This document shows, piece after piece, positions 13,183-36,731 of a DNA stretch of 64,000 bases. The stretch lies in assembly GCA_965216915.1 (NCBI GenBank), contig CBDCGS010000011.1:195404-259403 (forward strand), in the 5' to 3' direction. The position numbers and the translations under genes were made by a program. Each line of letters begins with the position of its first letter. Positions within the stretch are counted from its first letter, which is position 1. This DNA comes from Alphaproteobacteria bacterium. GTDB taxonomy: Bacteria; Pseudomonadota; Alphaproteobacteria; UBA828. The notes below the pieces were generated by a model. It had not been told where the DNA came from and made no database searches. It worked only from the letters and a program-made list of their open reading frames with translations.

Positions 13183-13299
13183 CCCCGCCGCCTCTTCCGC
13201 GCGAAGACGCGCTCGTCCGCGCCGCGCTCCAGTGCTAGGCTCCCGCCCCAGAGCGCCGCGAGCGCGGCGCATCGAATGTCGCATGTGAGGGAGGGATTC

Positions 13300-21800: not shown

Positions 21801-21809
21801 GAAGGGTGA

Positions 21810-23156: not shown

Positions 23157-24028
23157 GACGCGGCTCCTTGGACGAACTCGACGAGCGCGGCGGCGGTCGC
23201 ATCGGGCCGCTCAACGATCAGCGCGTGGCCGGTCTCCGGGATCGTGACGTGCCGGCAATCCGGCAGGTGGGAGGCGAAGCGCGCCGCCATCGCATTCGGA
23301 ATGAGCCGGTCGTCCTCCGCAGCCAAGACTAGGGACGGGCAGGCGACCCGCCCGAGACGGCGCGGCAGCTTGATGTTGTAGCGGGGCGACCACATGTAGC
23401 GCGCCGCCGCGGATGATTCGCCGAAGAGGAAGATGATGTCCTCGAGCGTGAGCTGCTGCTTCGGATCGAGCGAGGTGATGACCCCGTTCTCGACCACCGC
23501 ATCGGGGATGATCGGCGCGAGCGCGCTCTTGTCGTTGTAGAGCCGGTCGATCAGCTCCTCCGGCGAGATCTTGAACAAATCGACGCCAGGCTCGTCCTCG
23601 ATCCTGAGGCCGACGGGCGTAATCAACGTCAGGCTCTTCAGGCGGCGGAAGAGATAGGACGCATATTCGGCCGCGATCCAGCCGCCCAGCGAATAGCCCA
23701 CCATGTGCACCCGATCGATCTCGAGCGCATCGAGAAACGCGTCATAGTGCAGCGCGAGATCGTCGACCGAGACGATCCAGTCGGCGAGCGGCGTTTCGCC
23801 GAAGCCCGGATGCTCCGGCGCGATGAAATCGACGCTCTGCGCGCAGGCCTCGTAGAAGGGCAGCCACATGCGCGTCGAGCCCGCGCCGTGGAGAAACATC
23901 ACCGGCTCGCCCGCCCCCTTGCGCCGGTAGGCGGTCGGCACGCCACCCACATCGACGAAGCTCGGCTCGATGTAGTAGTTCGGTGGCTTGGGCACCGCTT
24001 CCGGCTTCAACGCACCCTCTGCGCCCAT
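23153..24028 (-). CDS. alpha/beta hydrolase fold protein
   Basis: HGAGS oxyanion region and a GYSLGG nucleophile elbow. 291 aa. Confidence 0.8.
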   Translation of the reverse strand: MGAEGALKPEAVPKPPNYYIEPSFVDVGGVPTAYRRKGAGEPVMFLHGAGSTRMWLPFYEACAQSVDFIAPEHPGFGETPLADWIVSVDDLALHYDAFLDALEIDRVHMVGYSLGGWIAAEYASYLFRRLKSLTLITPVGLRIEDEPGVDLFKISPEELIDRLYNDKSALAPIIPDAVVENGVITSLDPKQQLTLEDIIFLFGESSAAARYMWSPRYNIKLPRRLGRVACPSLVLAAEDDRLIPNAMAARFASHLPDCRHVTIPETGHALIVERPDATAAALVEFVQGAAS

Positions 24029-24087: not shown

Positions 24088-25143
24088 CTACGGCAACACC
24101 TTGCGGCGGCGAAACTCGGCGAAGAGGTCGAGGAACATCCGCTCCGTGTCCACCATCTCGGTATAGCCGCGGTCGATGCGCTTGGAATCCGACATGAGAA
24201 CGTCCCAGGACGTGTCCATGTTGAAGTCGAAATAGGGCCAGCCCGCGGTCTTCTCGTAGGGCAAGGGGATCAGGCCATGCTTTTCCACGATGCGCTCCCA
24301 GATCGGGCCTTTGTCGACCATCACCTCGGAGGAGCGGATGCGCTGTGGCATGCCGACCGCCATGCCGAAGAACGCCGCCCAATCGGGCCAGACGTTGACG
24401 TAGCGGAAGCCGTCGCCATTGGTGATGTTGAAGATCTCGTTGGCGGCATTGGGCGAGGTCGCCGACCACACGGTCATGCGCGCGAGAAGCCCCGAATCGG
24501 TCACCTGGTTGATTGCCTCGAAGCCGCCGATCTCGCCCGGATATTTGAGCGGCATGCCGAGCTCTTTCGAGATCGCGGCATAGGTGCCGAAGCACATGAT
24601 GAGGTTCATCGGGTTGCCGACCGCGAAGCCGCAGACGGCCTCGGGCCGCAGCACCGCCCACGACCAGCGCTTGCCCTCCTGAAACGCGATCAGGAAGTCC
24701 TCCTGGTCGTAGTAGAAGTTGGGCGGCATGTGGCGTGAGTCGCTTTCGAAGGCCGGTGTCTTGAAGGGGCCGAGCTGGCGGCCGTAGGCCTTGCTGCCCT
24801 CCTGCAGGACGACACGCTCCAGGCTCGGCGAGACCGCATCCATCACGGTCACCGGGTTGGCGACGAGCTTGCGGTTCTGCTCGGTGGTCGTCGCATCGAT
24901 CCCGCCGTAGAGCGCGCAGCAGAAAACGTGCGTCACGTCGGTGAGGTGGGCGAGCTTGCGCTCGGCCTCCGCCATGTCCAGCAGATCGCACGAGATGAAT
25001 TCGGCCTTCCCGGCCATCTCGTCGTCGGGCGAGCGCCGCGAGACGGCGACGATGTCCCAATCGTCGAGCATCGCCAGGTGGTTGATCAGATTGCGCCCGA
25101 TGACGCCGAGCCCACCGACCACGAGCGCTTTCTTGCGTGCCAT
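24088..25143 (-). CDS. NAD(P)-dependent oxidoreductase, extended SDR / epimerase-dehydratase-like
   Basis: N-terminal ALVVGGLGVIGRNL Rossmann motif; 351 aa. Sits where tmoE would be expected in a tmo operon. Confidence 0.7.
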   Translation of the reverse strand: MARKKALVVGGLGVIGRNLINHLAMLDDWDIVAVSRRSPDDEMAGKAEFISCDLLDMAEAERKLAHLTDVTHVFCCALYGGIDATTTEQNRKLVANPVTVMDAVSPSLERVVLQEGSKAYGRQLGPFKTPAFESDSRHMPPNFYYDQEDFLIAFQEGKRWSWAVLRPEAVCGFAVGNPMNLIMCFGTYAAISKELGMPLKYPGEIGGFEAINQVTDSGLLARMTVWSATSPNAANEIFNITNGDGFRYVNVWPDWAAFFGMAVGMPQRIRSSEVMVDKGPIWERIVEKHGLIPLPYEKTAGWPYFDFNMDTSWDVLMSDSKRIDRGYTEMVDTERMFLDLFAEFRRRKVLP

Positions 25144-25156
25144 GGGAGCGCGGGCC

Positions 25157-25459
25157 CTAAAGCGTTTTCTCGAGGTAGAAGCGGATTTGGTCGTCAGTGG
25201 TCTCGATGCGCCCGGCGAAGGAGGTGAGGTTGATCTCGAGTTCGGAGATCGCGATGGGTCGCCCCAGCGCGCGCGACAGCGTCTCCTGGCGGATCACGCA
25301 CTCGCCGTCCGTTTCGATCCGCACATAGGCAACCTTGTCGTCGATCACGAACTCCTTGCCCGGATTGTCCTCCTGGATCGCCTCGACCACGGCATCCGCG
25401 ACCTCGCCGGCCCGCATCACGGGGCCGACCGCGTTGTTGGTGTCCGTCCGTTCCGCCAT
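25157..25459 (-). CDS. tmoD: soluble diiron monooxygenase effector (coupling) protein, TmoD/MmoB family
   Basis: 100 aa. NNAVGPVMRAGE...DNPGKEF...AYVRIE...ELEINLTSFAGRI...DQIRFY aligns closely with the T4MO effector protein as I remember it. Confidence 0.85.
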   Translation of the reverse strand: MAERTDTNNAVGPVMRAGEVADAVVEAIQEDNPGKEFVIDDKVAYVRIETDGECVIRQETLSRALGRPIAISELEINLTSFAGRIETTDDQIRFYLEKTL

Positions 25460-25478
25460 GTTCGCCCCCGTTTGCGCC

Positions 25479-25814
25479 TCAGGCCTGAGAGAATTTCGGC
25501 TCGACTCCCTCGGTGTCGACGAACACGTCCTCGCCCTCGACCTTCACCGGATATTTCGCAACCTCGGCGTGGCCGGGATTGACGCCCTTGCCCGTCACGA
25601 CGTCGAACTCCCAGAGGTGCATGCAGCAGGTCAGCACCTTGCCCTCCAAGTCACCGTCCGCGAGCTCGACCTCCTGATGGGGGCAATTCGACTGGATGGC
25701 GTGCACTCCCTCGCCCTCGACATGGACGAGCAACACATCCGTGCCGCCGACGTCGAAGACCTCCATATCGCCCTCCCACAGATCGTCGAGCGTGCAGACC
25801 TTCTGAAATGCCAT
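25479..25814 (-). CDS. tmoC: Rieske-type [2Fe-2S] ferredoxin of an aromatic monooxygenase
   Basis: 111 aa. CPHQ...CCMHLW Rieske ligands. N-terminal KVCTLDDLWEGDME resembles T4MO ferredoxin TmoC. Confidence 0.85.
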   Translation of the reverse strand: MAFQKVCTLDDLWEGDMEVFDVGGTDVLLVHVEGEGVHAIQSNCPHQEVELADGDLEGKVLTCCMHLWEFDVVTGKGVNPGHAEVAKYPVKVEGEDVFVDTEGVEPKFSQA

Positions 25815-25817
25815 GTG

Positions 25818-26105
25818 CTATTCCGCCGGTTCGTCGAAGTATTCGTCGAAGTAGATGTCGATGCTGTCGAAATAGGCGATCCCGGCGGCCTCCGCCGTCA
25901 TCTCGCGCGGCCAAGGCGGCGCGTCATTGGTCTCGGTGGTGGGGCGCACGCGCAAGACCTTGTCGGGCCGCGGCGCGACGTGCAGATCGATCGAGTGCTC
26001 AGCGCACGCCGCCGCCACCTCGTCCATGGTCAGCTCCGGCGCGATCTCGACGACCTTGATATGGCAGTCGTACTGGAAGCGCGACAGGATCGGAAACGCC
26101 GCCAC
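25818..26105 (-). CDS. tmoB: aromatic monooxygenase hydroxylase gamma subunit (TmoB-like)
   Basis: 95 aa. MAAFPI...HVAPRPDKVLRVRP...PREMTAEAAG matches the TmoB pattern MSAFPV...RVAPREGVMRVRK...PRDMTIAESG as recalled. Confidence 0.7.
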   Translation of the reverse strand: MAAFPILSRFQYDCHIKVVEIAPELTMDEVAAACAEHSIDLHVAPRPDKVLRVRPTTETNDAPPWPREMTAEAAGIAYFDSIDIYFDEYFDEPAE

Positions 26106-26132
26106 GAAACTCGCTCCTCGCTGTGGGCTCGC

Positions 26133-27623
26133 CTATTCCGCGGCCTGCGCGCGGAAGCCGTCGATCCAGCGATAGTCGGCGCCGTCGCGCCCGCCCTCGC
26201 TCACCACGCCGATGCCCATATAGAGCAAAACGTTGTCGAGGGTGGGCGGGTCGATCTCGCCCGAATACATGCGGTCGACGATCGTCTCGTGCTTCTTGTA
26301 GCGGTCGGGGTCGGTGGTGAAGATCCACCGGCAGACCTCGGTGCAGAAATTGTGGCGCCGCCCCTCATGCTCCAGCTGGTAGGCCCGCGCCTTCCAGGGC
26401 TCGCCGGGCCGGTTGGAGATCGGGATCTGGCACATGTTGCAGATGATCGGGATGCAGTTCGGGTGTGTCTTCTCCTCGTGCCCCGCCAGGAGGTTGTTGG
26501 TGATCACGTCCCAATAGGTGCCGAAGGAGGCGTTCCAGCCCGGATATTTTTCCTCCAGCCACTCCCGCTCCGCCGGGCCCACATTGCCGGGCGGGTTCCA
26601 CCAGACGGTTGGGCGCCACGACCAGATGCCGCCTTGCTGGCAATGATGGTGGTTCTCGATGTCGTCGAGGAAAAGGTCCCAATACCAGGGCCGCTCGAGG
26701 CCGATGTCGGCCACCTGACGGTCATACTGGCGGATGATCCACTCGTGCATGAACTCCTTGAACGACATGTGCCGCTGCTCGAGCGGGATGTAGTAGTCCA
26801 TGGGGATGCCGACGGCGATGGCGAAGAGCCGCCACATGCGCCAGAACGCGACGTCCAGGGCCTGCTGCGCCTCGGCCTTCTTGCCGTTGCGGATCATGAT
26901 TTCGATCGTCGGCGTGCCGAGCTGGGCGTGGCGCGCCTCGTCCGACTGGATGCTCGTGATCAGGTTCGCGAAGGTGTAATCGCCCATGTTGGCGGCGTCC
27001 GTCGACAGCCCGATCATTTGCAGGTTGGTGAGGCCGGTTTCGAAGGCGAACGAGACCATGACCGAGCCCGTGATCGCATCCCGCGACATCATGATGTCGT
27101 CGATGGCATGGCGCCCGCCGAGGATCGCCCAGTTTTTCGTATGCGCCGCCTGGTGCGCCCAATCGAAATGGCGGTTCATCGAGACCAGCTCGTGCGGGAA
27201 ATAGAGCTGGAGCTGCGCGTGACGCATCTCGTCGAGCATGCCGTAGGTCGCCATGTTGCGCATGCTCGGCGAGGGGCCGAAGCGCGCCATCCGCGCCTGG
27301 AACTGGCAGGCCTGATACTCCGTCAGCGCAACAATACCGTAGTGCAGCTTGAGCACGCTCGCCCAGCCTTCGTCCGCCTGCTCGTAGAAGCGCGAGCGGG
27401 CGAGCGCCGCCTTGACCGAATAGGCGCTCGAATCCTTCTCCCGCTGGACCTTCACATACTCGCGATAGGAGACCTTGTAGGGTTCGTCGAAGCTCTCCCA
27501 TTCACTCACCGGGATGCCGTAGGGATCGCTCATCCCGGGTGGGAACAGCTCTTCGGCGGACACGTATTTCGGCGTCCAGTTGGTGTCCCGCGCGATGTCG
27601 TACCAGGCGGACCGGTCAAGCAT
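26133..27623 (-). CDS. tmoA: soluble diiron monooxygenase hydroxylase alpha subunit (toluene-4-monooxygenase TmoA-like)
   Basis: Two diiron ExxH motifs (LDEMRHAQL and SDEARHAQL). N-terminal MLDRSAWYDIARDTNWTPKY resembles TmoA. Start ATG at 27623 is preceded by AGGAGG at -7; the ORF track's 27671 is a TTG further upstream. Confidence 0.9.
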   Translation of the reverse strand: MLDRSAWYDIARDTNWTPKYVSAEELFPPGMSDPYGIPVSEWESFDEPYKVSYREYVKVQREKDSSAYSVKAALARSRFYEQADEGWASVLKLHYGIVALTEYQACQFQARMARFGPSPSMRNMATYGMLDEMRHAQLQLYFPHELVSMNRHFDWAHQAAHTKNWAILGGRHAIDDIMMSRDAITGSVMVSFAFETGLTNLQMIGLSTDAANMGDYTFANLITSIQSDEARHAQLGTPTIEIMIRNGKKAEAQQALDVAFWRMWRLFAIAVGIPMDYYIPLEQRHMSFKEFMHEWIIRQYDRQVADIGLERPWYWDLFLDDIENHHHCQQGGIWSWRPTVWWNPPGNVGPAEREWLEEKYPGWNASFGTYWDVITNNLLAGHEEKTHPNCIPIICNMCQIPISNRPGEPWKARAYQLEHEGRRHNFCTEVCRWIFTTDPDRYKKHETIVDRMYSGEIDPPTLDNVLLYMGIGVVSEGGRDGADYRWIDGFRAQAAE

Positions 27624-27643
27624 GGCAAACCTCCTGGACACGG

Positions 27644-27672
27644 CGCCGCGGCGCTGCGTCGGCGTGCCCAAA
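27644..27672 (-). promoter_or_regulatory. candidate sigma-54 (-24/-12) promoter for the tmoA operon
   Basis: The minus strand reads TTGGGCACGccgaCGCAGC, which matches GG-N10-GC spacing with 5/6 of TGGCAC. It lies about 20-45 nt upstream of the tmoA ATG. The match is only partial. Confidence 0.2.
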
Positions 27673-27813
27673 ACCCATCGATCTGTCAGGGCATTGTCGG
27701 TTCAGACGGGCGTGAAAGGCAAGCGTTTCGGCCTCAGACGCCCCTCTTGAACGCACGCCATGGGCCGGGCATCGTGCGGACTCGCGTGCGACATCGAGGC
27801 AGGGAGGCAAATC

Positions 27814-29166
27814 GTGGCCCAACGGCGGAAACACAGTGGCGGGCGTGGCGGCATCCAAACTGCGCTCGCCGCGCTGAAGAAGGACGGCATCCAGCACATC
27901 CGGTTCGAGCTTCCAGACATGCATGGCAGCGCGCGCTCCAAGCAGGTGCCCGTGGAGCGCTTTGCCGAGTTCGTCCGCGACGGGGTGAACATGTATGGCG
28001 GCATCGTCGCCCTCGACACGGCCTCCCACGTGATCCCCGGCACCCGCTACAACGAGGAGGTCAAATATCGCGATCAGACCCTGATCGCGGACCTTGCCAC
28101 CCTCCAAACCGTTCCCTGGATCCCCGAGACAGCGCGGGTGATCTGCGACACCCAATGGGCCGACGGCACGCCTCTCCACGGCGCGCCGCGTCACGTTGTT
28201 CGCCGCTTGCTCGATGCCGTCGACGCGCTCGGCTACAAGGCCGTCATGTCCCACGAGTACGAGTTCTATGTGCTCGATTCGGCGAATCACAGGCCGCTCT
28301 TCGAGGGCGTGCACATCTTCAACAACCTCAGAAACGAGCATATCCCGGCGGTCCGCGCCGTGGTCGATGGGCTGCGCGCCGCCGGCCTGCCGATGCTCAC
28401 CGCCAACGCCGAATACGCGCCCTCGCAATACGAGCTCGTCTACAGCCACGCCGAGGGCATGGCCGCCGTCGACAACGCCTACACCTTCAAGAATGCCGTG
28501 AAGGAGATCGTGCAGCACGCGGGGCACACCGCGACCTTCATGTCGAAGCCGTTCAGCGACACGGCCGGCTCCGGCTGCCACTTCCACATCAGCTTGGTCG
28601 ACAAGAAAACCGGGCGGAATGTGTTCTACAACCCGCGCAAGCGGGGTGAGATGCCGGATGTCCTGCGCCATTTCGTGCAGGGCATCATCAGTCATGGGCG
28701 CGCCTGCACGGCGCTCTTCAATCCGACCCCCAACTGCTACCGGCGCCTCAGGCCCCACACCTTCGCGCCCTCCAACATTTCCTGGGGCGAGGAGGATCGA
28801 AGCGCCATGGTGCGCATCAAGCGTGCGGGCAGCAATGCCATGCATGTGGAGATGCGGGCCTCCTCGTCCATCAGCAACCCCTATCTCGTGGCCGCGGGCA
28901 CGCTCGCCTGCGGGCTGCTCGGCCTCAAGGAGGCGATGCCGCTCGTCGAGCAAACCGCCGGTCCGAGCGAGGACGACCCGACCCTCCCGCCCTTCCCCGC
29001 CAACCTCGACGCCGCGCTCGACGCGCTCAACGGCGACAGGGCGGTCGTCGACCTGCTGGGCGAGGAATTCGTCGACATCTTCACGACCATGAAGCGCGCC
29101 GAACTCGCGCGTTTCCACACCGAGGTGACCGAGTGGGAGCGGCGTGAATATATCGAGCTCTACTAA
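27814..29166 (+). CDS. glutamine synthetase family protein (GlnA-like; gamma-glutamyl-amine ligase type, e.g. PuuA/GmaS/IpuC-like)
   Basis: GS catalytic domain (beta-grasp N-domain IQHIRFELPDMHG and C-domain motifs). Start proposed at the GTG at 27814, preceded by GGGAGG; the ORF track's ATG at 27760 has no Shine-Dalgarno sequence. Confidence 0.8.
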   Translation: MAQRRKHSGGRGGIQTALAALKKDGIQHIRFELPDMHGSARSKQVPVERFAEFVRDGVNMYGGIVALDTASHVIPGTRYNEEVKYRDQTLIADLATLQTVPWIPETARVICDTQWADGTPLHGAPRHVVRRLLDAVDALGYKAVMSHEYEFYVLDSANHRPLFEGVHIFNNLRNEHIPAVRAVVDGLRAAGLPMLTANAEYAPSQYELVYSHAEGMAAVDNAYTFKNAVKEIVQHAGHTATFMSKPFSDTAGSGCHFHISLVDKKTGRNVFYNPRKRGEMPDVLRHFVQGIISHGRACTALFNPTPNCYRRLRPHTFAPSNISWGEEDRSAMVRIKRAGSNAMHVEMRASSSISNPYLVAAGTLACGLLGLKEAMPLVEQTAGPSEDDPTLPPFPANLDAALDALNGDRAVVDLLGEEFVDIFTTMKRAELARFHTEVTEWERREYIELY

Positions 29167-29193
29167 CCGACGAGCACATCTAGGAGAGGCCAC

Positions 29194-29583
29194 ATGGTGA
29201 CGTTTCATCGCTCGATGCCGATCCTCGAAGTGTCGGATGTCGTGGCGAGCGGCACGTTCTATCGCGAGAAACTCGGCTTCCAAACCGCGTTCTTCGGCGA
29301 CCCGCCGGCTTTTTGCATCGTTGGGCGGGATGCGGTCACGATCGGGCTGGACCAGGCCAGATCGCCGAACCGCGCGCCGCAGAACGCGGGGTGGGCGGCC
29401 TATCTGTACGTCGACGATGCCGAGGCTCTCTGCGGCGAGTTTCGCGCGGCCGGCGTCGACATCACGCGCGAGCCCGAGGATACGTTCTACGGATGCCGCG
29501 ACTTCGATATCCGCGATCCCGATGGCCATCTCATCGCCTTCGGGCAGGATCTCCATCCGGGTCCGGATGGCCCGGGCTTGTAG
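29194..29583 (+). CDS. VOC family protein (glyoxalase/bleomycin-resistance/dioxygenase fold)
   Basis: 129 aa (LEVSDVVASGTFYREKLGF...DFDIRDPDGHLIAFGQ). Confidence 0.7.
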   Translation: MVTFHRSMPILEVSDVVASGTFYREKLGFQTAFFGDPPAFCIVGRDAVTIGLDQARSPNRAPQNAGWAAYLYVDDAEALCGEFRAAGVDITREPEDTFYGCRDFDIRDPDGHLIAFGQDLHPGPDGPGL

Positions 29584-29636
29584 GCAGCATCACCGATCTC
29601 GACGACGTATCGGCGCGGCGCTAGGCTAGCGGCACC

Positions 29637-29993
29637 GTGAAGGGAGGAGCCATGAGCGCGCAGGATGCCGGGCGCGGCTGCCACGATGTGGGCGGCCTGC
29701 CCGCCGATCAGGTCGACAGAGCCGAGCATGCCTCGGCGCTCTGGGAGAAGCGGGTCGATGCCTTGATGATGCTGCTCTCCAACCGCTCACGGCGGGTCAT
29801 CACCGTCGATGAGCTGCGGCGCGGCATCGAGGAGCTCGGCGCCGACGCCTACGACCGCATGAGCTATTACGAGCGCTGGATCGCCTCGATCACCCACAAC
29901 CTTTTGGAAAAGGGGGTGATCAGCACCGATGAGCTCGGCCGGCGCATGGCCGAGGTCGAGGCCCGCGGCGATGCCGGGGAGGCGCAACGCTGA
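29637..29993 (+). CDS. nitrile hydratase beta subunit, N-terminal half (split beta)
   Basis: HDVGGLP corresponds to the conserved YDVGG of the NHase beta N-terminus. 118 aa, ending at the natural domain linker. Its stop overlaps the next ATG (ATGA). Confidence 0.7.
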   Translation: MKGGAMSAQDAGRGCHDVGGLPADQVDRAEHASALWEKRVDALMMLLSNRSRRVITVDELRRGIEELGADAYDRMSYYERWIASITHNLLEKGVISTDELGRRMAEVEARGDAGEAQR

Positions 29994-30274
29994 TGGCGCG
30001 CTTCGGGGCCGGCGACACCGTGCGCGTCAGGCGGGCGTTCCCGCCGGGGCACGTGCGCACACCGTATTACATCCGCGGCAAGAGCGGCGTGGTCGAGCGG
30101 CTTTGCGGCGCGTTCGGCAACCCGGAAGAGCTCGCCTTCGGGCGCGACGGCCTGCCCGCGCAGCCGCTTTACCGGGTCCGCTTCGAGCAAGCGACGATTT
30201 GGCCCGACTATGGCGGCCAGGTCGGCGACACGGTCGACGTGGAGCTCTACGAACATTGGCTCGAGCCCGTTTGA
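29993..30274 (+). CDS. nitrile hydratase beta subunit, C-terminal half (split beta)
   Basis: 93 aa. GDTVRVRRAFPPGHVRTPYYIRGKSGVV aligns to the NHase beta C-domain (GDVVRF...GHARRARYVRGKTGTVV) as recalled. Confidence 0.7.
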   Translation: MARFGAGDTVRVRRAFPPGHVRTPYYIRGKSGVVERLCGAFGNPEELAFGRDGLPAQPLYRVRFEQATIWPDYGGQVGDTVDVELYEHWLEPV

Positions 30275-30292
30275 AACAGGAAAGACGCAACC

Positions 30293-30919
30293 ATGAGCGA
30301 GCACCCGCATGATCATGTCCCGCCGCCGGAAGAGGATGGTGCGTTGAGCCACTACCAAATCATGGAAATCGCCGTGCGCGAGCTTCTCGTGGAAAAGGGC
30401 GTGTTCAGCGCCGACGACGTGCGCGCCGAGATCGAGGCGATGGATGCCCGAAGCCCCGCGCAGGGCGCGGCCGTGGTCGCCCGTGCCTGGACGGACCCCG
30501 CGTTCAAGGCCTCTCTCCTGGAAGACGGCACCGCCGCCTGCGCCTCGCTCGGTCTCGACATGGGGCCCATCAATCTGGTGGTCGTCGAGAACACGCCCCA
30601 GGTGCATAACGTGATCGTCTGCACCCTTTGCTCCTGCTACCCACGGTTCCTGCTCGGCATTCCCCCGGCTTGGTACAAATCGAAGGCCTACCGCTCGCGC
30701 GTCGTGCGCGAGCCGCGCACCGTGCTGCGCGAATTCGGCACCGAGCTTCCAGGCGACGTCGCGGTGAGGGTGCATGATTCCACCGCCGACATGCGCTACC
30801 TCGTGTTGCCGATGCGCCCAGCGGGAACCGACGGCTGGTCGCGAGAGGCGCTGGCTGATCTCGTCGGGCGCGACAGCCTGATCGGGGTCACCCTGCCCAG
30901 CCAGCCGGCAAGCGCGTAG
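30293..30919 (+). CDS. nitrile hydratase alpha subunit, cobalt type
   Basis: VCTLCSCYP metal-binding motif; threonine (not serine) in the motif and tyrosine after it indicate Co-type. The downstream PPAWYKS...YRSRVV...RYLVLPMRPAGTDGWS is nearly identical to known NHase alpha subunits. Confidence 0.85.
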   Translation: MSEHPHDHVPPPEEDGALSHYQIMEIAVRELLVEKGVFSADDVRAEIEAMDARSPAQGAAVVARAWTDPAFKASLLEDGTAACASLGLDMGPINLVVVENTPQVHNVIVCTLCSCYPRFLLGIPPAWYKSKAYRSRVVREPRTVLREFGTELPGDVAVRVHDSTADMRYLVLPMRPAGTDGWSREALADLVGRDSLIGVTLPSQPASA

Positions 30920-30935
30920 CCGAGCGACGCTCGCC

Positions 30936-32612
30936 ATGTACGACCTCGCAATTCGCGGCGCGATGCTTGCCGATGGGCTCGGCGGCCCGCTGCGCCAGGC
31001 CGACGTGGCCGTCGCCGGCGACCGCATCGCGGCCGTCGGCCAGATCGACGAGCCGGTGCGCGAGACGGTCGATGCGGGTGGCCTCGTCCTGGCCCCCGGC
31101 ATTGTCGATGTTCACACCCACTACGACGCGCAGCTCACCTGGGAGACCAGGGCGACGCCATCACCCGCGCTCGGCGTGACCACGGTCGTGGTCGGCAATT
31201 GCGGGTTCGGCATCGCGCCGTGCCCGCCGGACTGCCGTACCCTCATGGCACGCAACCTTGCCGAGGTCGAGGGCATGGCGATCGCCGCGCTCAGCGCGGG
31301 CATCGATTGGAGCTTCGAGACCTTTCCGGAATACCTCGATCTGCTGCGCCGCAAAGGCTGCTATCCCAATGTCGGCGCCTTCATCGGCCACACCGCGGTG
31401 CGCACGGCGGTGCTAGGCGCGGAAGCCTCGGAGCGCGCGGCGACGGACGACGAGGTGGCGACGATGCGCGCGCTCGTCGACGAGGCCATGGCCGCGGGCG
31501 CAATCGGCTTCGCCACGTCGACATCGATCAACCACAACGGCGATGGGGGCGTGCCCGTGCCCTCGCGTCTCGCCGAGGAGAGTGAGCTGCGCGCGCTCGT
31601 CGGCGTCTTGGGCGCGCGCCGGCAGGGTGTGTTCCAGCTCACGGTCGGGCCCAGCGTGACCGTGCCGTTCCTCGAAGCATTGAGCGCGGAGATCGACCGT
31701 CCCGTGTTCATGACCGCGGCGCTCCACAACGACACCTTCCCCGACCGCGCGATCGGCATGCTCGATGACGCGGCGGCCGCGCAATCTCGCGGCCATGGCG
31801 TCTGGGCGCAGGTCTCGTGCCAACCGCTGTCGATGGATTTTTCGATGCAGACGGCCTTCCCGCTGCAAAGCCTCGACGCGTGGGAGCCGCTCCACACCGC
31901 CGATCACACGTCGTTCGTCGACATCATCAAGAGCGACGCCTTCCGCGACCAGTTTCGCGCCGATCTCGAGACACCGAAGCGCGGCACGCTGTTCTACGGC
32001 GACTGGGAAAAGGTCCAAGTCGCCATGACCCACCGCTCCGAGAACCGCGCGCTCGAGGGCGAGACGATCGCGAGCTTGGCGGCGCGCGATGGGCGCGATC
32101 CGGTCGATCTCTTCTTCGATCTCGCCGCGGAGGAGAACCTCGACACCGTGTTCACCGCCGCGCTCCTCAACTCCAACGACACGGCGGTCAAGGAGCTTCT
32201 GCAGCATGATGGGGGGCTGGTCAGCCTTTCCGACGCAGGCGCGCATCTCTGCTACCTGTGCGATGCCGGCTATGGTCTCCACCTGCTCGGCCATTGGGTG
32301 CGGGAGGAGAGCGCCTTCGACCTCGCGGACGGCGTGCGGCGGATCACCAGCCTGCCCGCGCAGCTCTATGGCATCGTCGATCGCGGCGAGATCGCGCCGG
32401 GCAAATTCGCCGACCTCCTGCTCTTCGATCCGCAAACCGTGGCGCGCGGCCCGCTCCGCCGCGTGGGCGACCTTCCCGGCGGCGAAAGCCGCCTGATCCG
32501 TGACCCGCTCGGCGTGCATGGCGTTTGGATCAATGGCGTGATGGTGCACGACGGCCGCGACTACGCCGACGTCGCGCCGCCCGGACGCGTGCTGGACCGC
32601 TTCGCCGCCTGA
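30936..32612 (+). CDS. N-acyl-D-amino-acid deacylase family amidohydrolase (D-aminoacylase-like)
   Basis: 558 aa. N-terminal DLAIRGAMLADG...IVDVHTHYD metal-binding HxH motif and the VVGNCG motif characteristic of the D-aminoacylase family. Confidence 0.8.
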   Translation: MYDLAIRGAMLADGLGGPLRQADVAVAGDRIAAVGQIDEPVRETVDAGGLVLAPGIVDVHTHYDAQLTWETRATPSPALGVTTVVVGNCGFGIAPCPPDCRTLMARNLAEVEGMAIAALSAGIDWSFETFPEYLDLLRRKGCYPNVGAFIGHTAVRTAVLGAEASERAATDDEVATMRALVDEAMAAGAIGFATSTSINHNGDGGVPVPSRLAEESELRALVGVLGARRQGVFQLTVGPSVTVPFLEALSAEIDRPVFMTAALHNDTFPDRAIGMLDDAAAAQSRGHGVWAQVSCQPLSMDFSMQTAFPLQSLDAWEPLHTADHTSFVDIIKSDAFRDQFRADLETPKRGTLFYGDWEKVQVAMTHRSENRALEGETIASLAARDGRDPVDLFFDLAAEENLDTVFTAALLNSNDTAVKELLQHDGGLVSLSDAGAHLCYLCDAGYGLHLLGHWVREESAFDLADGVRRITSLPAQLYGIVDRGEIAPGKFADLLLFDPQTVARGPLRRVGDLPGGESRLIRDPLGVHGVWINGVMVHDGRDYADVAPPGRVLDRFAA

Positions 32613-32695
32613 GGTGGAGCGGGACGGGCCGGGCAGCGCAAGCCACCCATTGACCTCCGCCGAGGGGACGCGCCGCGTGGTACGCCTTTCGCGTG

Positions 32696-32721
32696 TGCAT
32701 GAGTGAACGTGACATGCTCTA
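32696..32721 (-). repeat. truncated fragment of the RIME/REP-like repeat
   Basis: gcatgagtgaacgtgacatgctctag matches the reverse complement of the 5' arm of copy 2 (gcatg[agcatgc]gtgaacgtgacatgc) fused directly to the terminal tctag. Confidence 0.35.
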
Positions 32722-32746
32722 GACACGCCCCAGGGACGCAGCCGCC

Positions 32747-33679
32747 ATGGAGCAGATCCTCTCCGCCTGTGTCCCGGTGTTCGGGATTGTCGCGTGTGGC
32801 TACGTCGTCGGCCGGCTCGGGATCCTCGGGACGGGTGCGGTCGCTGCGCTGAACCGCTTCGTCTATGCGATCGGCTTTCCGGCGCTGCTGATCCACGGCC
32901 TGGCGCGGATCGACATCGGCACTGAGCTCCGCTGGGACTTCCTCGGGGCCTATGCGTTCGGACTCGGTGTCACGGCGCTGCTGGCGCTCGGCAGCCTGCG
33001 GCTCGACGGCACCGCGGGCGCCAAGCCGGCGGCGATGCGGGTCGTCAACGCGACCTATGGCAACACCGGCTATCTCGGCATCCCGCTCGGCGTGATGATC
33101 TTCGGCGAGGCCGCGCTGCCGCCTGCGAGCCTCACCGTGGTCGCGCATAGCGTGTTGGTGCTGCCCATCGCGTGCGCGATGCTCGACGCGCAACGCGGCG
33201 CGCGCTGGTGGACGCCCGGCACTGACACGATGCGCCGGTTGGCGACCAACCCGCTGCTCTGGGGTGTGGCGCTCGGCCTGCTGCTCGCCGCCACAGGCGC
33301 GACGATCCCCGCGCCGATCGACCGCTTTCTGGGGCTTCTCGGCGAGGCGGCGGGCCCGGTCGCGCTGATCAGCATCGGCCTCTTCGGCGCCACCTTGCCG
33401 GCGCGCGCGCTCATCCGCCGCGGCGCGATGCCTTCGGCCTTGAAGCTGATCGCCTTTCCTCTCGCCGTGTGGCTCGCGCTTGAGACCTTTGTCCCGCTCG
33501 ATGGCATGTGGCGCGACATGGCGCTGCTGATGGCGGCGGCGCCGCTCGGTGCGACGGCCTTCGTTCTCGCCGAGCGCAGCGGCGTGGAGCGTGACGAGAC
33601 CTCCGCGACGATCATCGTCACCACCATATTGTCGCTGCCCGTCTTCGCGCTGATCCTATCCTTGGTTGCCACCCCCTGA
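32747..33679 (+). CDS. AEC (auxin efflux carrier) family transporter
   Basis: 310 aa, about 10 TM helices, with the two-repeat topology typical of AEC/malonate-uptake family permeases. Confidence 0.8.
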   Translation: MEQILSACVPVFGIVACGYVVGRLGILGTGAVAALNRFVYAIGFPALLIHGLARIDIGTELRWDFLGAYAFGLGVTALLALGSLRLDGTAGAKPAAMRVVNATYGNTGYLGIPLGVMIFGEAALPPASLTVVAHSVLVLPIACAMLDAQRGARWWTPGTDTMRRLATNPLLWGVALGLLLAATGATIPAPIDRFLGLLGEAAGPVALISIGLFGATLPARALIRRGAMPSALKLIAFPLAVWLALETFVPLDGMWRDMALLMAAAPLGATAFVLAERSGVERDETSATIIVTTILSLPVFALILSLVATP

Positions 33680-33726
33680 CCCTGCGCGATAATGGGCGGG
33701 CAACAACGTCACGGGGGAGCCACGCA

Positions 33727-35121
33727 ATGAGTGACGACGGTTTTGTCCATCCCTATGTACCCAATGCGGCGCCGGGGCCGCGCAGGGCGCTGCTCGATGC
33801 GATCGGTGTCGCAAGCGTCGGCGAGCTCTACGCCGCGATCCCCGAGGCCTTGCGCCTGAAGACGCCGCTCGACCTCCCCGCCCCCCTTCGCGCCGAGCAG
33901 GATCTGCGCAAGCACGTGGAAGGGATCATCGCACGCAATCAGTCCTGCGCCGACCACCTGAACTTCTGCGGTGCCGGCTGCGCGCAGCACTATGTCCCGG
34001 CGATCTGCGACGAAATCGTGCATCGCGGCGAGTTTCTCACCGCTTATGGCGGCGGCACCTATTCCGACCACGGCAAGAACCAGGCGCTCTTCGAGTATCA
34101 GAGCCTGATCGGCGAGCTCGTCGGCATGGAGGTCGTCTCGGCGCCGACTTACGACGCCGGCGCCGCCGCCGACAGCGCCGTCCTCATGGCCTGCCGCATC
34201 ACCGGACGGCGGCGCATTCTCGTGCCCGAAAGCATGAGCGCGGACCGGCGCTCGCAGATGCGCGGCTTCACCAAGCCGCATGCGAGCGTGGAGGTGGTGG
34301 CACGCGATCCCGCGACCGGCCTCCTCGACCTCGCCGATCTCGACGCCAAACTCTCCCCGGACGTCGGGGCGGTGTTGTTCGAAAGCCCGGGCTATCTCGG
34401 ACAGATCGAAACCCAAGCCGCAGAGATCACCGCGCGCGCCCGGAAAGCCGGTGCGCTTTCGATCGCCGGCGTGGACCCGATCAGCCTCGGGGTGCTCGCC
34501 GCCCCCGCCGACTATGGCGCCGATTTCGTGATCGGCGACTTGCAGCCGCTCGGGATCCACATGTATGCGGGTGGCGGGAACGCCGGGTTCATCGCGAGCC
34601 GCGACGAGGAGCGCTTCGTCGCCGAGTTTCCCTCGATGCTGTTCAGCATCGCACCCGGCAGCGATGACGGCACGTTCGGCTTCGCCTGGTCGACCATGGA
34701 GCGCACCTCCTACGACACCCGGCACGACGCGACGGACTATTACGGCACGACCCAGTGGATCTGGGGTATCGGCGCCGCGGTCTATCTCGCCCTGCTCGGG
34801 CCGAAGGGACTCGCCGAGCTTGGCAGCGGCATCATGCAGCGTGCGCGATATGCCGCCGAACGCATCGCCGGCCTCGACGGCGTCAGCGTTCCCCGGCTCG
34901 ACCAGCCGTTCTTCAAGGAGTTCGTCGTGGATTTCTCAGGCACCGGAAAATCGGTCGCCTCCATAAACACCGCACTGCGCGAGGCGGGCATCTTCGGCGG
35001 CAAGGATTTGAGCGGCGAGTTCCCCGACCTCCGGCATAGCGCGCTCTATTGCGTCACGGAGGTCCACGGCAAGGCCGACATCGACCGGCTGGTCGATGCG
35101 TTGACGGAGGCTGTGCGATGA
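33727..35121 (+). CDS. gcvPA: glycine dehydrogenase (decarboxylating) subunit 1-like (GcvPA family)
   Basis: 464 aa. Subunit-1 architecture (YVPNAAP...TAYGGGTYSDHGKNQALFEYQ). Confidence 0.8.
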   Translation: MSDDGFVHPYVPNAAPGPRRALLDAIGVASVGELYAAIPEALRLKTPLDLPAPLRAEQDLRKHVEGIIARNQSCADHLNFCGAGCAQHYVPAICDEIVHRGEFLTAYGGGTYSDHGKNQALFEYQSLIGELVGMEVVSAPTYDAGAAADSAVLMACRITGRRRILVPESMSADRRSQMRGFTKPHASVEVVARDPATGLLDLADLDAKLSPDVGAVLFESPGYLGQIETQAAEITARARKAGALSIAGVDPISLGVLAAPADYGADFVIGDLQPLGIHMYAGGGNAGFIASRDEERFVAEFPSMLFSIAPGSDDGTFGFAWSTMERTSYDTRHDATDYYGTTQWIWGIGAAVYLALLGPKGLAELGSGIMQRARYAAERIAGLDGVSVPRLDQPFFKEFVVDFSGTGKSVASINTALREAGIFGGKDLSGEFPDLRHSALYCVTEVHGKADIDRLVDALTEAVR

Positions 35122-36713
35122 GCGCGACGAACGGCGGCTTCCGCGCCGCACGCTGGAACGAGCCCCTCCTCAACACGCTCTCGGAGCCCGGTGCGCGCGG
35201 CATCGTTCCGCCCGCCATCGATCGCGAGATCGCCGATGCCGTCGGCGATGTCGCCGCGGCGCTTCCGGATTCGGTCAGGCGCGCCGCGCCACCCGACCTG
35301 CCGGAGCTGCCGCAGCATCGCGTGCTGCGTCACTTCTTGCGGCTGTCGCAGATGTCGATGGGCTTCGACGTGACGCCCGACATGATGGGCACCTGCACCA
35401 TGAAATACAGCCCCAAGGTGCATGAATATGTGGCGCGCCGCCCGGAATTCGCGGACGTCCATCCGCTGCAGGACGAGAGCACTCTGCAGGGCACGCTCGA
35501 GATCCTCTACCGTTTCAACCGCATGATGTGTGCGATCGCGGGCATGGACGAGTTCACGTTCCAGCCGGCGAGCGGCGCCCAGGGTATCTACACCAACGCC
35601 TGCATCATTCGCGCCTATCACGAATCGCGGGGCGATCTCGCGCAGCGCAACGAGATCATCACGACGGCGTTCTCGCACCCGGCCGATGCGGCGACGCCAG
35701 CGGTCGCGGGCTTCAAGGTGATCACGCTGATGCCGGGAGAGATGGGCTTCGCCGACGTCGACGCGCTCAAGGCCGCGGTCTCGGAGCGCACGGCCGGCCT
35801 CATGCTGACCAACCCGGAGGACACGGGTCAGTTCAACCCGGCGATCCGCGAGTTCGTCGACATCGTGCACGAGGCGGGCGGGCTCTGCGCCTATGACCAG
35901 GCGAACGGCAACCCGCTGCTTGGCGTCGTGCGCGCCGGCGACACCGGCTTCGACATGTGCCAATTCAACCTGCACAAGACATTCTCGGCGCCGCACGGCG
36001 CCATCGGCCTCGGCTGCGCGGCGGTCGGCGTGAAGGAGCATTTGCGCAAGTTCCTGCCGCGCCCGATCGTCACCCATGATGGCGAGCGCTACGGCCTCGA
36101 TCACGCGCCGGGCGAGAGCATCGACAAGATCCGCGCCTTCATCGGCAACGTGCATGCGGTGCTCAAGGCCTATTCGTGGGTGATGAGCCTCGGCGCCGAG
36201 GGCCTGCGCGCGGTCGCCGAGACGGCGGTACTCAATAATAACTACATGCTCGCCAACATTCGGAAGATCCGCGGCACCGCGATCCCGTGGCCCAAGAACA
36301 CCTATCCGAAGCTCGAGCAGGTGCGCTACAGCTGGGAGCCGCTTTACGAGGAGACCGGCGTCACGAGCCACGACATTATGAACCGCATGGTGGATTTCGG
36401 CGTGCAGCACTACATGGAAAGCCACGTGCCGATGCTGGTGCCGCAGCCCTTCACGATCGAGCCCGGCGAATCGCTCACAGTCGAGGAGATGGACGGGGTA
36501 CTCGACGCGCTCCGCAAGATCGCCGACGAGGCCTACAACACGCCGAAGGTCGTGCAGGAGGCGCCGCACAACGCCGCCACCACGCCGATCGACGGCGACG
36601 TGCCCGAAGATCCCGATTGCTGGGCGTTCACCTGGCGCGCGTACGAGCGCAAGAAGGACAATTGGGCCAACGTCGCGCGGCGCAACGAGGGCAGCCGCGG
36701 CGGCTACGGTTGA
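35118..36713 (+). CDS. gcvPB: glycine dehydrogenase (decarboxylating) subunit 2-like (GcvPB family, PLP-binding)
   Basis: PLP lysine region NLHKTFSAPHG. Start overlaps the gcvPA stop (ATGA). The ORF track starts 69 nt upstream, in a non-homologous region. Confidence 0.8.
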   Translation: MSATNGGFRAARWNEPLLNTLSEPGARGIVPPAIDREIADAVGDVAAALPDSVRRAAPPDLPELPQHRVLRHFLRLSQMSMGFDVTPDMMGTCTMKYSPKVHEYVARRPEFADVHPLQDESTLQGTLEILYRFNRMMCAIAGMDEFTFQPASGAQGIYTNACIIRAYHESRGDLAQRNEIITTAFSHPADAATPAVAGFKVITLMPGEMGFADVDALKAAVSERTAGLMLTNPEDTGQFNPAIREFVDIVHEAGGLCAYDQANGNPLLGVVRAGDTGFDMCQFNLHKTFSAPHGAIGLGCAAVGVKEHLRKFLPRPIVTHDGERYGLDHAPGESIDKIRAFIGNVHAVLKAYSWVMSLGAEGLRAVAETAVLNNNYMLANIRKIRGTAIPWPKNTYPKLEQVRYSWEPLYEETGVTSHDIMNRMVDFGVQHYMESHVPMLVPQPFTIEPGESLTVEEMDGVLDALRKIADEAYNTPKVVQEAPHNAATTPIDGDVPEDPDCWAFTWRAYERKKDNWANVARRNEGSRGGYG

Positions 36714-36731
36714 GCCGCGCCGCCCGGCATC

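What the first reader, a model, noticed from the sequence alone, without database searches (positions are those of the whole stretch)
29637..30919. Cobalt-type nitrile hydratase with the beta subunit split into two coupled genes (betaN-betaC-alpha)
The alpha gene carries the Co-type VCTLCSCY centre. The beta homolog is encoded as a 118-aa N-domain gene and a 93-aa C-domain gene, split exactly at the interdomain linker, with the stop of the first overlapping the ATG of the second (TGATG). Three-subunit enzymes of this family are known for toyocamycin nitrile hydratase and thiocyanate hydrolase, but are uncommon in proteobacterial NHases. No NHase activator gene (P14K/NhlE-like) follows; an amidohydrolase does.
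Basis: partly seen in the sequence, partly recalled or inferred. Interest (0 to 1): 0.6.

Follow-up and report, generated by a model that had tools for sequence, protein, structure and literature searches.

The report
Three-gene cobalt nitrile hydratase operon
This is a real cobalt-type nitrile hydratase whose beta subunit is made from two overlapping genes, but the layout has already been characterised in Streptomyces enzymes and occurs in hundreds of bacterial genomes, so it is an ordinary new member of a known kind.

Summary
Three co-directional genes encode a beta N-domain protein (29652-29993, or from GTG 29637), a beta C-domain protein (29993-30274) and an alpha subunit (30293-30919) with V109-CTLCSC-Y116. 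The first stop and second start overlap as TGATG.

The split is not a frameshift artefact. In 76-78 of 80 related genome loci the same three genes are separate ORFs. The stop/start junctions take several forms and use both relative reading frames. The two halves joined align end to end with a natural single-chain beta subunit, with no segment missing.

The layout is not new. Streptomyces canus ScNHase has the same order (anhD-anhE-anhA) and no activator, and AnhD doubles as the maturation chaperone. ToyJKL and a Microvirga plasmid enzyme are also three-subunit.

It is not rare in proteobacteria. At least 533 species genomes carry a relative, and 72 of the best 80 are Pseudomonadota.

It fails the thiocyanate hydrolase threshold. 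No activator or cobalt transporter was found in the window.

A D-aminoacylase-family amidohydrolase follows the alpha gene here and in about 14 of 80 relatives. It may hydrolyse the amide product. The substrate is unknown.

Verdict: new member of a known kind, low-to-moderate interest.

The parts
29642..29649 (+). Shine-Dalgarno-like GGGAGGAG ahead of the probable betaN start
   Evidence: Read directly from the sequence. It lies 2-4 nt before ATG 29652. Homologues align only from residue 9-16 of the longer GTG ORF.
29652..29993 (+). betaN: N-terminal domain of the nitrile hydratase beta subunit as its own 113-aa protein (118 aa if the GTG at 29637 is used). It corresponds to AnhD of ScNHase.
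   Evidence: Pfam NHase_beta_N, E 5e-18. NCBIfam nitrile_beta scores 60 bits against 14 bits for nitrile_acc. HDxGG, WEKRVDA, DExR (Arg56) and YYERW (Tyr72/73) are conserved in 72 homologues. It aligns to residues 3-99 of PDB beta subunits.
29991..29995 (+). TGATG stop/start overlap coupling betaN and betaC translation
   Evidence: In 57 of 76 related loci the junction is a 4-nt (ATGA/GTGA, 41 loci) or 1-nt (TGATG/TAATG, 16 loci) overlap.
29993..30274 (+). betaC: C-terminal SH3-like domain of the beta subunit as its own 93-aa protein. It corresponds to AnhE of ScNHase.
   Evidence: Pfam NHase_beta_C, E 1.7e-21, profile 10-98 of 98. It aligns to residues 140-227 of 1v29_B. His20, Arg22, Thr23, Pro24 and Arg28 are invariant in 31 homologues. 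GHxRTPxYxRG is present in 61 of 63.
30293..30919 (+). alpha subunit, 208 aa, which carries the metal site
   Evidence: Pfam NHase_alpha, E 7e-82. TIGR01323 scores 260.1 bits, above the 249.85 cut-off. Best PDB matches are Co-type NHase alpha chains, E 1e-55 to 1e-66.
30617..30640 (+). Codons for V109-C-T-L-C-S-C-Y116, the Co-type metal-binding motif
   Evidence: The same motif is in 65 of 72 related alpha subunits; 6 have VCTLCSCF.
30936..32612 (+). D-aminoacylase-family metallo-amidohydrolase, 558 aa, 16 nt downstream of alpha. Candidate amide-hydrolysing partner; this role is inferred.
   Evidence: Pfam Amidohydro_3. Best PDB match is D-aminoacylase 1m7j (E 2e-42), with the HxH and GNCG metal-ligand motifs aligned. 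It is found directly after the NHase in about 14 of 80 related loci and in L084, which has a different downstream context. It also occurs without an NHase in L085/L086.

Best explanation
The three genes encode a functional cobalt-type nitrile hydratase built from three polypeptides (alpha, betaN, betaC), most likely assembled as an (alpha-betaN-betaC)2 heterohexamer like ToyJKL and ScNHase.

**Catalysis (inferred from the family).** The alpha subunit binds non-corrin Co(III) through the three cysteines of C110-T-L-C113-S-C115. Two of these are oxidised after translation. Arg56 of betaN and Arg22 of betaC take the places of the two beta-subunit arginines that hold the oxidised cysteines. Tyr72/73 of betaN line the pocket. 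The enzyme hydrates R-CN to R-CONH2.

**Expression (shown plus inferred).** The overlapping stop/start is shown here and is conserved across the family. That it delivers the two beta halves in matched amounts is inferred.

**Maturation (by analogy).** No separate activator is needed. By analogy with AnhD of ScNHase, betaN probably doubles as the cobalt-insertion and subunit-swapping chaperone.

**Downstream step (inferred, about 40% confidence).** The D-aminoacylase-type amidohydrolase probably converts the amide to acid plus ammonia.

The natural nitrile is not identified.
For: - Domain assignments and curated thresholds.
- Best structural relatives are Co-type NHases.
- betaN+betaC joined is collinear with a natural single-chain beta (P0138, 56% identity, 5 gapped positions in 206) and with 4fm4_B over residues 3-195.
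- The same three separate genes occur in 76-78 of 80 related genome loci.
- Overlap junctions are of several kinds and use both relative frames.
- Catalytic motifs are conserved family-wide.
- All three genes show the codon-position GC pattern of real genes (GC3 0.84-0.87).
- No second copy or activator-like paralogue exists in the 64 kb.
- ScNHase has anhD(N)-anhE(C)-anhA, no activator, AnhD as chaperone and an AnhD2E2A2 assembly: PMC7329996.
- ToyJKL is an (alpha-beta-gamma)2 hexamer of 21.2, 10 and 11.4 kDa subunits: PMC8574189.
- The amidohydrolase pairing recurs in two different downstream contexts.
Against: - No activity, metal content or expression data exist for this locus.
- No cobalt transporter was found in the window, unlike the Streptomyces and Burkholderia plasmid loci, which have HoxN.
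- An activator could lie elsewhere in the genome.
- The sequences of AnhDEA and ToyJKL themselves were not available for direct comparison. Only a Streptomyces plasmid homologue was compared: 44% (betaN), 50% (betaC) and 60% (alpha) identity.
- The amidohydrolase occurs without an NHase in L085/L086, and about 80% of related NHase loci lack it. The coupling is therefore optional.
Confidence: 0.85

Rival explanations
1. The split is a sequencing or assembly frameshift, or a decaying pseudogene, of an ordinary single beta-subunit gene.
For: A 1-nt overlap at a domain boundary is what an indel in a continuous gene could look like.
Against: - The 120 best database relatives of betaC are all stand-alone proteins of 93-153 aa.
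- 76-78 of 80 genome loci from many phyla keep separate betaN and betaC ORFs.
- Junctions are ATGA-type in 41 loci, TGATG-type in 16, and overlaps of 8, 11, 14 or 23 nt (distance -7, -10, -13 or -22) in 11 more. These put betaC in different frames relative to betaN.
- Both halves keep gene-like GC3 and their conserved motifs.
Confidence: 0.01
2. It is a thiocyanate hydrolase. That enzyme also has three subunits, encoded in the order betaN-like, betaC-like, alpha-like, and it hydrolyses SCN- to COS and ammonia.
For: The three proteins hit SCNase chains 2dd4_B (E 6e-6), 2dd4_A (E 7e-9) and 2dd4_C (E 6e-57). The alpha subunit scores 229.6 bits against TIGR03887.
Against: - The 229.6 bits is below the 291.45-bit TIGR03887 cut-off, while the nitrile_alph cut-off is passed.
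- Every NHase chain in the PDB outranks or equals the SCNase chains.
- The SCNase subunits carry N-terminal extensions that are absent here. The matches start at residue 45 of 2dd4_B and residue 35 of 2dd4_A.
- No sulfur-oxidation or COS/cyanate genes lie nearby.
Confidence: 0.03
3. It is a tailoring enzyme for a cyano-deazapurine, as ToyJKL is for toyocamycin, or acting on preQ0. On this reading it is not a catabolic nitrile hydratase.
For: The split layout is the ToyJKL layout (PMC7329996; PMC8574189). In six related loci, QueF and a Vut_1/YhhQ-like transporter lie 2-4 kb upstream of the NHase.
Against: - No deazapurine biosynthesis, QueF or YhhQ genes were found among the genes scanned in this window.
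- The QueF/Vut_1 genes are also present in L085/L086, where the NHase is absent. They therefore belong to the genomic backbone, not to the NHase cassette.
- The surrounding genes are catabolic: monooxygenases, hydrolases and CoA-dependent enzymes.
Confidence: 0.05
4. betaN is only an activator (a P14K/NhlE-type chaperone), and the working enzyme is alpha plus betaC.
For: Known activators resemble the beta N-terminus. betaN gives a faint nitrile_acc match of 14.3 bits, E 0.029. AnhD acts as a chaperone in ScNHase (PMC7329996).
Against: - betaN scores 60 bits against nitrile_beta, compared with 14 bits against nitrile_acc (cut-off 46).
- It keeps the catalytic-pocket motifs DExR and YYERW of true beta subunits.
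- In ScNHase, AnhD is both a structural subunit of AnhD2E2A2 and a chaperone.
Confidence: 0.05

Closest known systems
ScNHase (AnhD-AnhE-AnhA) of Streptomyces canus CGMCC 13662 (Guo et al. 2019, 2020; PMC7329996)
   Same: - Co-type alpha subunit.
- Beta subunit encoded as an N-domain gene then a C-domain gene then alpha.
- No activator gene.
- The conserved His of the betaC GHxRTP motif (His20 here) probably corresponds to AnhE-His21, which is cited as a substrate-binding residue (PMC13243292).

A Streptomyces plasmid locus with the same layout is 44% (betaN), 50% (betaC) and 60% (alpha) identical to the window proteins.
   Different: - The host is probably an alphaproteobacterium; the closest loci are Alphaproteobacteria MAGs.
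- Identity to actinobacterial versions is only about 45-60%.
- The genes here are followed by a D-aminoacylase-type amidohydrolase, not by the aquaporin and HoxN cobalt transporter of the Streptomyces plasmid locus.
- The AnhDEA sequences themselves were not compared.
Toyocamycin nitrile hydratase ToyJKL of Streptomyces rimosus
   Same: Three subunits of about 21, 10 and 11 kDa, with the two small ones corresponding to the two halves of beta. Assembly is (alpha-beta-gamma)2 (PMC8574189). The predicted sizes here are similar (208, 113 and 93 aa).
   Different: In ToyJKL the alpha gene is named first (toyJ), which suggests, from recall and not checked here, the order alpha-beta-gamma; here the order is betaN-betaC-alpha. 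ToyJKL sits in a deazapurine antibiotic cluster, and no such genes are found here.
Canonical two-subunit Co-type NHases (P. putida 3qxe, Pseudonocardia thermophila 1ire, Bacillus smithii 1v29)
   Same: The same alpha fold and VCTLCSCY site (E 1e-55 to 1e-61). The same beta domains and the same arginine and tyrosine positions.
   Different: - Those have one beta gene of 219-233 aa plus a dedicated activator gene.
- Here beta is in two genes, the linker is about 25 residues shorter than in 1v29_B, and no activator was found.
- betaC is only about 40% identical to them, against 50-78% to stand-alone betaC proteins.
Thiocyanate hydrolase of Thiobacillus thioparus (2dd4)
   Same: Three subunits homologous to betaN, betaC and alpha. 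Cobalt site with oxidised cysteines.
   Different: The window alpha falls below the curated SCNase threshold. The N-terminal extensions are absent. NHases are the closer relatives.
Eukaryote-type beta-alpha fusion NHases (Monosiga brevicollis type; PMC3323583)
   Same: The beta part of a beta/His-rich-linker/alpha fusion protein (P0221) is 45% identical to betaN+betaC joined. That is closer than the canonical bacterial beta subunits. No activator is known for these enzymes either (PMC7193024).
   Different: Those are single polypeptides, whereas this locus has three genes. The taxonomic origin of P0221 could not be established.

Membership tests
Co-type nitrile hydratase (EC 4.2.1.84) | Alpha subunit passing the curated family threshold | tested here: met
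   TIGR01323 scores 260.1 bits against a 249.85 cut-off. Pfam NHase_alpha E 7e-82.
Co-type nitrile hydratase (EC 4.2.1.84) | Metal motif C-T-L-C-S-C with the Thr and following Tyr typical of cobalt enzymes (VCTLCSCY; iron enzymes have VCSLCSCT) | tested here: met
   V109-CTLCSC-Y116. The Co/Fe rule itself is from established knowledge and PMC7329996.
Co-type nitrile hydratase (EC 4.2.1.84) | Beta-subunit N and C domains present, with the two active-site arginines and the YY(E)xW tyrosines | tested here: met
   Pfam NHase_beta_N and NHase_beta_C. Arg56 and Tyr72/73 of betaN and Arg22 of betaC align to the conserved positions in 1v29_B and 3qxe_B and are conserved in the family. That these are the catalytic arginines is from recalled knowledge of the structures.
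Co-type nitrile hydratase (EC 4.2.1.84) | Bound cobalt, oxidised cysteines and nitrile-hydrating activity | not testable with these tools
   Needs expression with cobalt, metal analysis, mass spectrometry and an activity assay.
Three-subunit NHase (ScNHase AnhDEA / ToyJKL type) | Beta subunit encoded by two separate genes corresponding to the N and C halves | tested here: met
   The split is conserved in 76-78 of 80 related loci. The joined halves are collinear with a single-chain beta.
Three-subunit NHase (ScNHase AnhDEA / ToyJKL type) | Gene order N-half, C-half, alpha (the ScNHase order) | tested here: met
   The order in ScNHase is given in PMC7329996.
Three-subunit NHase (ScNHase AnhDEA / ToyJKL type) | No dedicated activator gene | tested here: inconclusive
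   None is adjacent, and tblastn finds no beta-like paralogue in the 64-kb window. The neighbouring genes scanned with Pfam show none. No small conserved downstream gene appears in 80 related loci. The rest of the genome is not available.
Three-subunit NHase (ScNHase AnhDEA / ToyJKL type) | Sequence clustering with AnhDEA/ToyJKL rather than with two-subunit NHases | not tested
   The AnhDEA and ToyJKL sequences were not retrievable. As a proxy, a Streptomyces plasmid N-C-alpha locus is 44/50/60% identical. Nearly all of the closest 150 cluster representatives of betaC are stand-alone proteins.
Thiocyanate hydrolase | Gamma (alpha-like) subunit passing the curated TIGR03887 threshold | tested here: not met
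   229.6 bits against a 291.45 cut-off.
Thiocyanate hydrolase | N-terminal extensions on the two small subunits (157 and 126 aa) | tested here: not met
   The window proteins are 113 and 93 aa. Their matches start at residue 45 of 2dd4_B and residue 35 of 2dd4_A.
NHase activator (P14K/NhlE; TIGR03889) | betaN passes the accessory-protein model | tested here: not met
   14.3 bits against a cut-off of 46. The same protein scores 60.2 bits against nitrile_beta.

The most novel reading that the evidence does not exclude
The split-beta cassette and the D-aminoacylase-family metallo-amidohydrolase that follows it form an undescribed two-step nitrile-to-acid route. The amidohydrolase would take the place of the usual signature amidase. 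The route would serve an unidentified natural nitrile, for example an alpha-amino- or N-acylamino-nitrile. Its product would be passed to the adjacent transporter and GcvP-like decarboxylase genes.

In addition, this very abundant and mostly uncultured proteobacterial clade would be the bacterial counterpart of the 'eukaryotic-type' fused nitrile hydratases.
Probability: 0.2. Interest if true: 0.45.

Novelty: new member of a known kind. Interest (0 to 1): 0.22.

Why it matters
It matters modestly. Only a few three-subunit, activator-free nitrile hydratases have been characterised, mostly from Streptomyces. This survey shows that the same layout is widespread in uncultured Alphaproteobacteria and Burkholderiales. 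These could be a source of enzymes that express without a helper protein, which is useful for biocatalysis and for breaking down nitrile pesticides.

The recurrent pairing with a D-aminoacylase-type amidohydrolase hints at an unknown natural nitrile substrate. None of this changes how the enzyme family is understood.

Tried and rejected
- **Exact-sequence look-ups.** Look-ups of alpha and betaC in the contig index found nothing, so the source organism was not identified. The identical betaC and amidohydrolase proteins are recorded on a 1.79-Mb NCBI/ENA contig.
- **RNA and signal scans.** An Rfam scan of 27000-34000 gave no riboswitch, only a chance-level ALIL hit at E 0.73. The promoter/terminator scan showed nothing between the NHase genes and nothing above shuffle expectation.
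- **Paralogues.** tblastn of the three proteins against the window found no second copy and no activator-like paralogue.
- **Cobalt uptake.** Pfam scans of 47 window ORFs found no cobalt transporter.
- **Rejected readings.** Frameshift or pseudogene, programmed frameshifting (both relative frames occur), thiocyanate hydrolase and betaN as a pure activator.
- **Neighbourhood clustering.** Apart from the three NHase genes, no partner is conserved across all 80 loci. The amidohydrolase/AEC/GcvP block and the QueF/Vut_1/amidase genes belong to a genomic backbone that also exists without the NHase.
- **Not run.** Structure prediction was skipped because the sequence evidence was decisive and the tool folds single chains only.
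Full report
**1. What is in the sequence**

Three co-directional ORFs occupy 29637-30919.
- The first (GTG 29637, or more likely ATG 29652, to 29993) matches Pfam NHase_beta_N (E 5e-18). It covers positions 3-104 of the 226-position NCBIfam nitrile_beta model.
- The second (29993-30274, 93 aa) matches NHase_beta_C (E 1.7e-21). It covers positions 137-226 of the same model.
- The third (30293-30919, 208 aa) matches NHase_alpha (E 7e-82). It passes the curated nitrile_alph cut-off, 260.1 against 249.85 bits.

The alpha subunit has VCTLCSCY at residues 109-116, the cobalt-type form of the metal motif. The stop of the first gene (TGA 29991-29993) shares one base with the ATG of the second, so the sequence reads TGATG. 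All three genes have the codon-position GC pattern of real genes in this 67% GC window, with GC3 of 0.84-0.87.

A GGGAGGAG lies just before ATG 29652. Homologues align only from residue 9-16 of the longer ORF. The 113-aa form is therefore the likelier product.

**2. Is the split real?**

Yes.
- A search of 5.8 billion proteins with the 93-aa protein gave 1784 relatives. The best 120 are all stand-alone proteins of 93-153 aa at 71-78% identity.
The best 80 loci were fetched.
- In 76-78 of the 80 loci, betaN, betaC and alpha are three separate neighbouring ORFs in the same order.
- The betaN-stop/betaC-start junction is a 4-nt ATGA/GTGA overlap in 41 loci and a 1-nt TGATG/TAATG overlap in 16 loci.
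- In 11 more loci the overlap is 8, 11, 14 or 23 nt (distance -7, -10, -13 or -22). Most of these put betaC in the other relative frame.

A sequencing error or a programmed frameshift cannot give this pattern. Overlapping, translationally coupled genes are a conserved trait of the family.

**3. Is anything missing between the halves?**

The two halves joined (206 aa) align end to end with a natural single-chain relative, P0138 (202 aa). Identity is 56%, with 5 gapped positions. They also align as one stretch with the 206-aa Comamonas beta subunit 4fm4_B, residues 3-195.

Compared with longer beta subunits such as 1v29_B (229 aa), about 25 residues of the variable linker are absent.

**4. Are the catalytic features kept?**

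Alignment to solved beta subunits places three sets of residues at conserved active-site positions:
- betaN Arg56 in DELRRGIE;
- betaN Tyr72/73 in YYERW;
- betaC His20 and Arg22 in GHVRTP.

That these are the arginines contacting the oxidised cysteines is recalled from the NHase structural literature. It was not measured here.

Across the family the motifs hold:
- HDxGG, WEKRVDA, DExR and YYERW are conserved in betaN.
- GHxRTPxYxRG is present in 61 of 63 betaC proteins.
- VCTLCSCY is present in 65 of 72 alpha subunits, with VCTLCSCF in 6.

**5. Activator**

The alpha gene is followed after 16 nt by an amidohydrolase, not by a P14K/NhlE-type gene.
- tblastn finds no second beta-like sequence in the 64 kb.
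- Pfam scans of 47 window ORFs, the three NHase genes included, show neither an activator nor a cobalt transporter.
- No small gene is conserved downstream of alpha in the 80 related loci.
- betaN scores 60 bits against nitrile_beta and only 14 bits against the accessory-protein model, whose cut-off is 46. It is a true beta N-domain with the faint activator resemblance expected from the known homology.

The rest of the genome could not be searched.

**6. What is already known**

*Streptomyces canus ScNHase (PMC7329996).*
- The gene order is anhD-anhE-anhA. AnhD and AnhE are homologous to the N- and C-termini of the beta subunit.
- The genome has no activator gene.
- Cobalt inserts without an activator under reducing conditions.
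- AnhD acts both as a beta part and as the metal and self-subunit-swapping chaperone.
- The assembly is AnhD2E2A2.

*Other three-subunit enzymes.*
- Toyocamycin nitrile hydratase ToyJKL is an (alpha-beta-gamma)2 hexamer of 21.2, 10 and 11.4 kDa subunits (PMC8574189).
- A three-subunit enzyme on a Microvirga flocculans plasmid, in an alphaproteobacterium, is cited in PMC11573777.

*Annotated examples.* RefSeq annotates the stand-alone halves as 'SH3-like domain-containing protein' or 'nitrile hydratase':
- a Streptomyces plasmid, with N-C-alpha followed by an aquaporin and a HoxN cobalt transporter;
- a Planktothrix plasmid, with asnB followed by N-C-alpha;
- Burkholderia, Rhizobium and Agrobacterium plasmids.

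Identity of the window proteins to the Streptomyces and Planktothrix sets is 44-52% (betaN), 50-57% (betaC) and 60-61% (alpha).

**7. How common is it?**

By record title, the best 80 genome loci divide as follows:

| Group | Loci |
|---|---|
| Alphaproteobacteria | 49 |
| Betaproteobacteria / Burkholderiales | 16 |
| Gammaproteobacteria | 3 |
| Unclassified Pseudomonadota | 4 |
| Planctomycetota | 4 |
| Verrucomicrobiia, Actinomycetota, Ca. Cybelea, a Clostridia MAG | 1 each |

Most of these are MAGs.

In the 50%-identity representative library, 1547 proteins match betaC at E up to 0.001. About 121 of the best 150 are shorter than 150 aa. The rest include a few single-chain beta subunits, betaC-alpha fusions and beta-linker-alpha fusions.

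Among the 40 plasmid hits listed, 16 are annotated as stand-alone SH3-like proteins and 14 as full-length nthB.

The layout is rare only among characterised enzymes. It is not rare in proteobacterial genomes.

**8. Rivals**

- **Thiocyanate hydrolase.** It has the same three-part layout. However, the alpha subunit is below the curated SCNase cut-off (229.6 against 291.45 bits), NHase chains outrank the SCNase chains, and the SCNase N-terminal extensions are absent.
- **ToyJKL-like tailoring role.** No deazapurine genes were found among the genes scanned in the window. QueF and Vut_1 genes occur near the NHase in six related loci, but they are also present where the NHase is absent.

**9. Context and likely role**

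The 558-aa downstream protein belongs to the D-aminoacylase branch of the amidohydrolases. Its best PDB match is 1m7j (E 2e-42), with the HxH and GNCG metal-ligand motifs aligned. It is part of a tight family of 558-aa proteins.

- It follows the NHase directly in about 14 of 80 related loci.
- It also follows the NHase in L084, where the downstream genes differ.
- In L085/L086 the same amidohydrolase, AEC transporter, GcvPA/PB-like, NAD-kinase-like, HpcH aldolase and 2-hydroxyacid dehydrogenase backbone exists with a PhyH gene and no NHase.
- In L004 the NHase sits between PhyH and the amidohydrolase.

The NHase therefore behaves as a three-gene cassette that is often, but not always, placed in front of this amidohydrolase. 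A nitrile to amide to acid-plus-ammonia route is a reasonable inference at roughly 40% confidence. The substrate is unknown.

**10. Verdict**

The feature is a new member of a known kind, the three-subunit, activator-free Co-type nitrile hydratase of the ScNHase type.

The interest lies in how abundant this clade is in uncultured proteobacteria and in the unusual amidohydrolase partner. The architecture itself is not new.

Noticed in passing
window 24088-27671 (- strand), with 20076-24028: A soluble di-iron monooxygenase gene set lies here. It comprises a TmoA-like hydroxylase with a YHS domain (26133-27671), TmoB (25818-26105), a Rieske ferredoxin (25479-25814) and an MmoB/DmpM effector (25157-25459). 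It is followed by a PRISE/epimerase-like gene, an alpha/beta hydrolase, a luciferase-like monooxygenase and an asparagine synthase. It diverges from the GS-like/glyoxalase/NHase genes on the other strand.
   Followed up: partly
window 33727-37853: A GcvPA/GcvPB-like pair has no GcvT or GcvH beside it and is followed by an NAD-kinase-like gene. The block amidohydrolase/AEC/GcvPAB/NAD-kinase-like/HpcH aldolase/2-hydroxyacid dehydrogenase is conserved in L085/L086, where a PhyH gene sits in place of the NHase.
   Followed up: partly
window 39043-41016: A 657-aa ORF with gene-like codon bias has no Pfam match.
   Followed up: no
L082 4803-6259 (Burkholderia sp. PAMC 26561 plasmid): The three-part NHase here is in the order betaC-alpha-betaN, next to a HoxN cobalt transporter. 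The betaC homologue has a 60-residue N-terminal extension with a twin-arginine-like signal (SRRSWLKALAASGAAVAMG). This suggests export of the enzyme to the periplasm.
   Followed up: no
L047 7310-7998 (Verrucomicrobiia MAG): Two tandem betaN genes, both matching NHase_beta_N (E 1e-18 and 5e-21), precede betaC and alpha. One may have specialised as a chaperone.
   Followed up: no
proteins P0150, P0154, P0221, P0138: Close relatives of betaC occur in other architectures.
- P0138 is a single-chain beta subunit.
- P0154 is a betaC-alpha fusion with an intact VCTLCSCY.
- P0150 is a betaC-alpha fusion that has lost the cysteine ligands (IVSSLGGSY).
- P0221 is a beta/His-Asp-rich-linker/alpha fusion of the eukaryotic type. 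Its beta part is 45% identical to the window's betaN+betaC.
   Followed up: partly
L004 3288-5856; also L008, L011, L016, L023, L039: QueF (the preQ0 nitrile reductase), a Vut_1/YhhQ-like transporter and a signature amidase lie 2-4 kb upstream of the split NHase. preQ0 is a nitrile. The same genes are present in L085/L086 without the NHase.
   Followed up: partly
L083 2731-5916 (Planktothrix agardhii plasmid): An asparagine synthase gene directly precedes betaN-betaC-alpha. It sits next to methyltransferase, TauD-type dioxygenase and glutathione S-transferase genes, which may form a natural-product cluster. The window also has an AsnB, at 20076-21800, but 8 kb away on the other strand.
   Followed up: no
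window 13276-15129 and 52248-55401: A tungsten-type aldehyde:ferredoxin oxidoreductase (AFOR_N and AFOR_C) lies at 13276-15129. A homogentisate pathway set (HPPD, HgmA-like, fumarylacetoacetase) lies at 52248-55401. The window as a whole is rich in catabolic genes.
   Followed up: no
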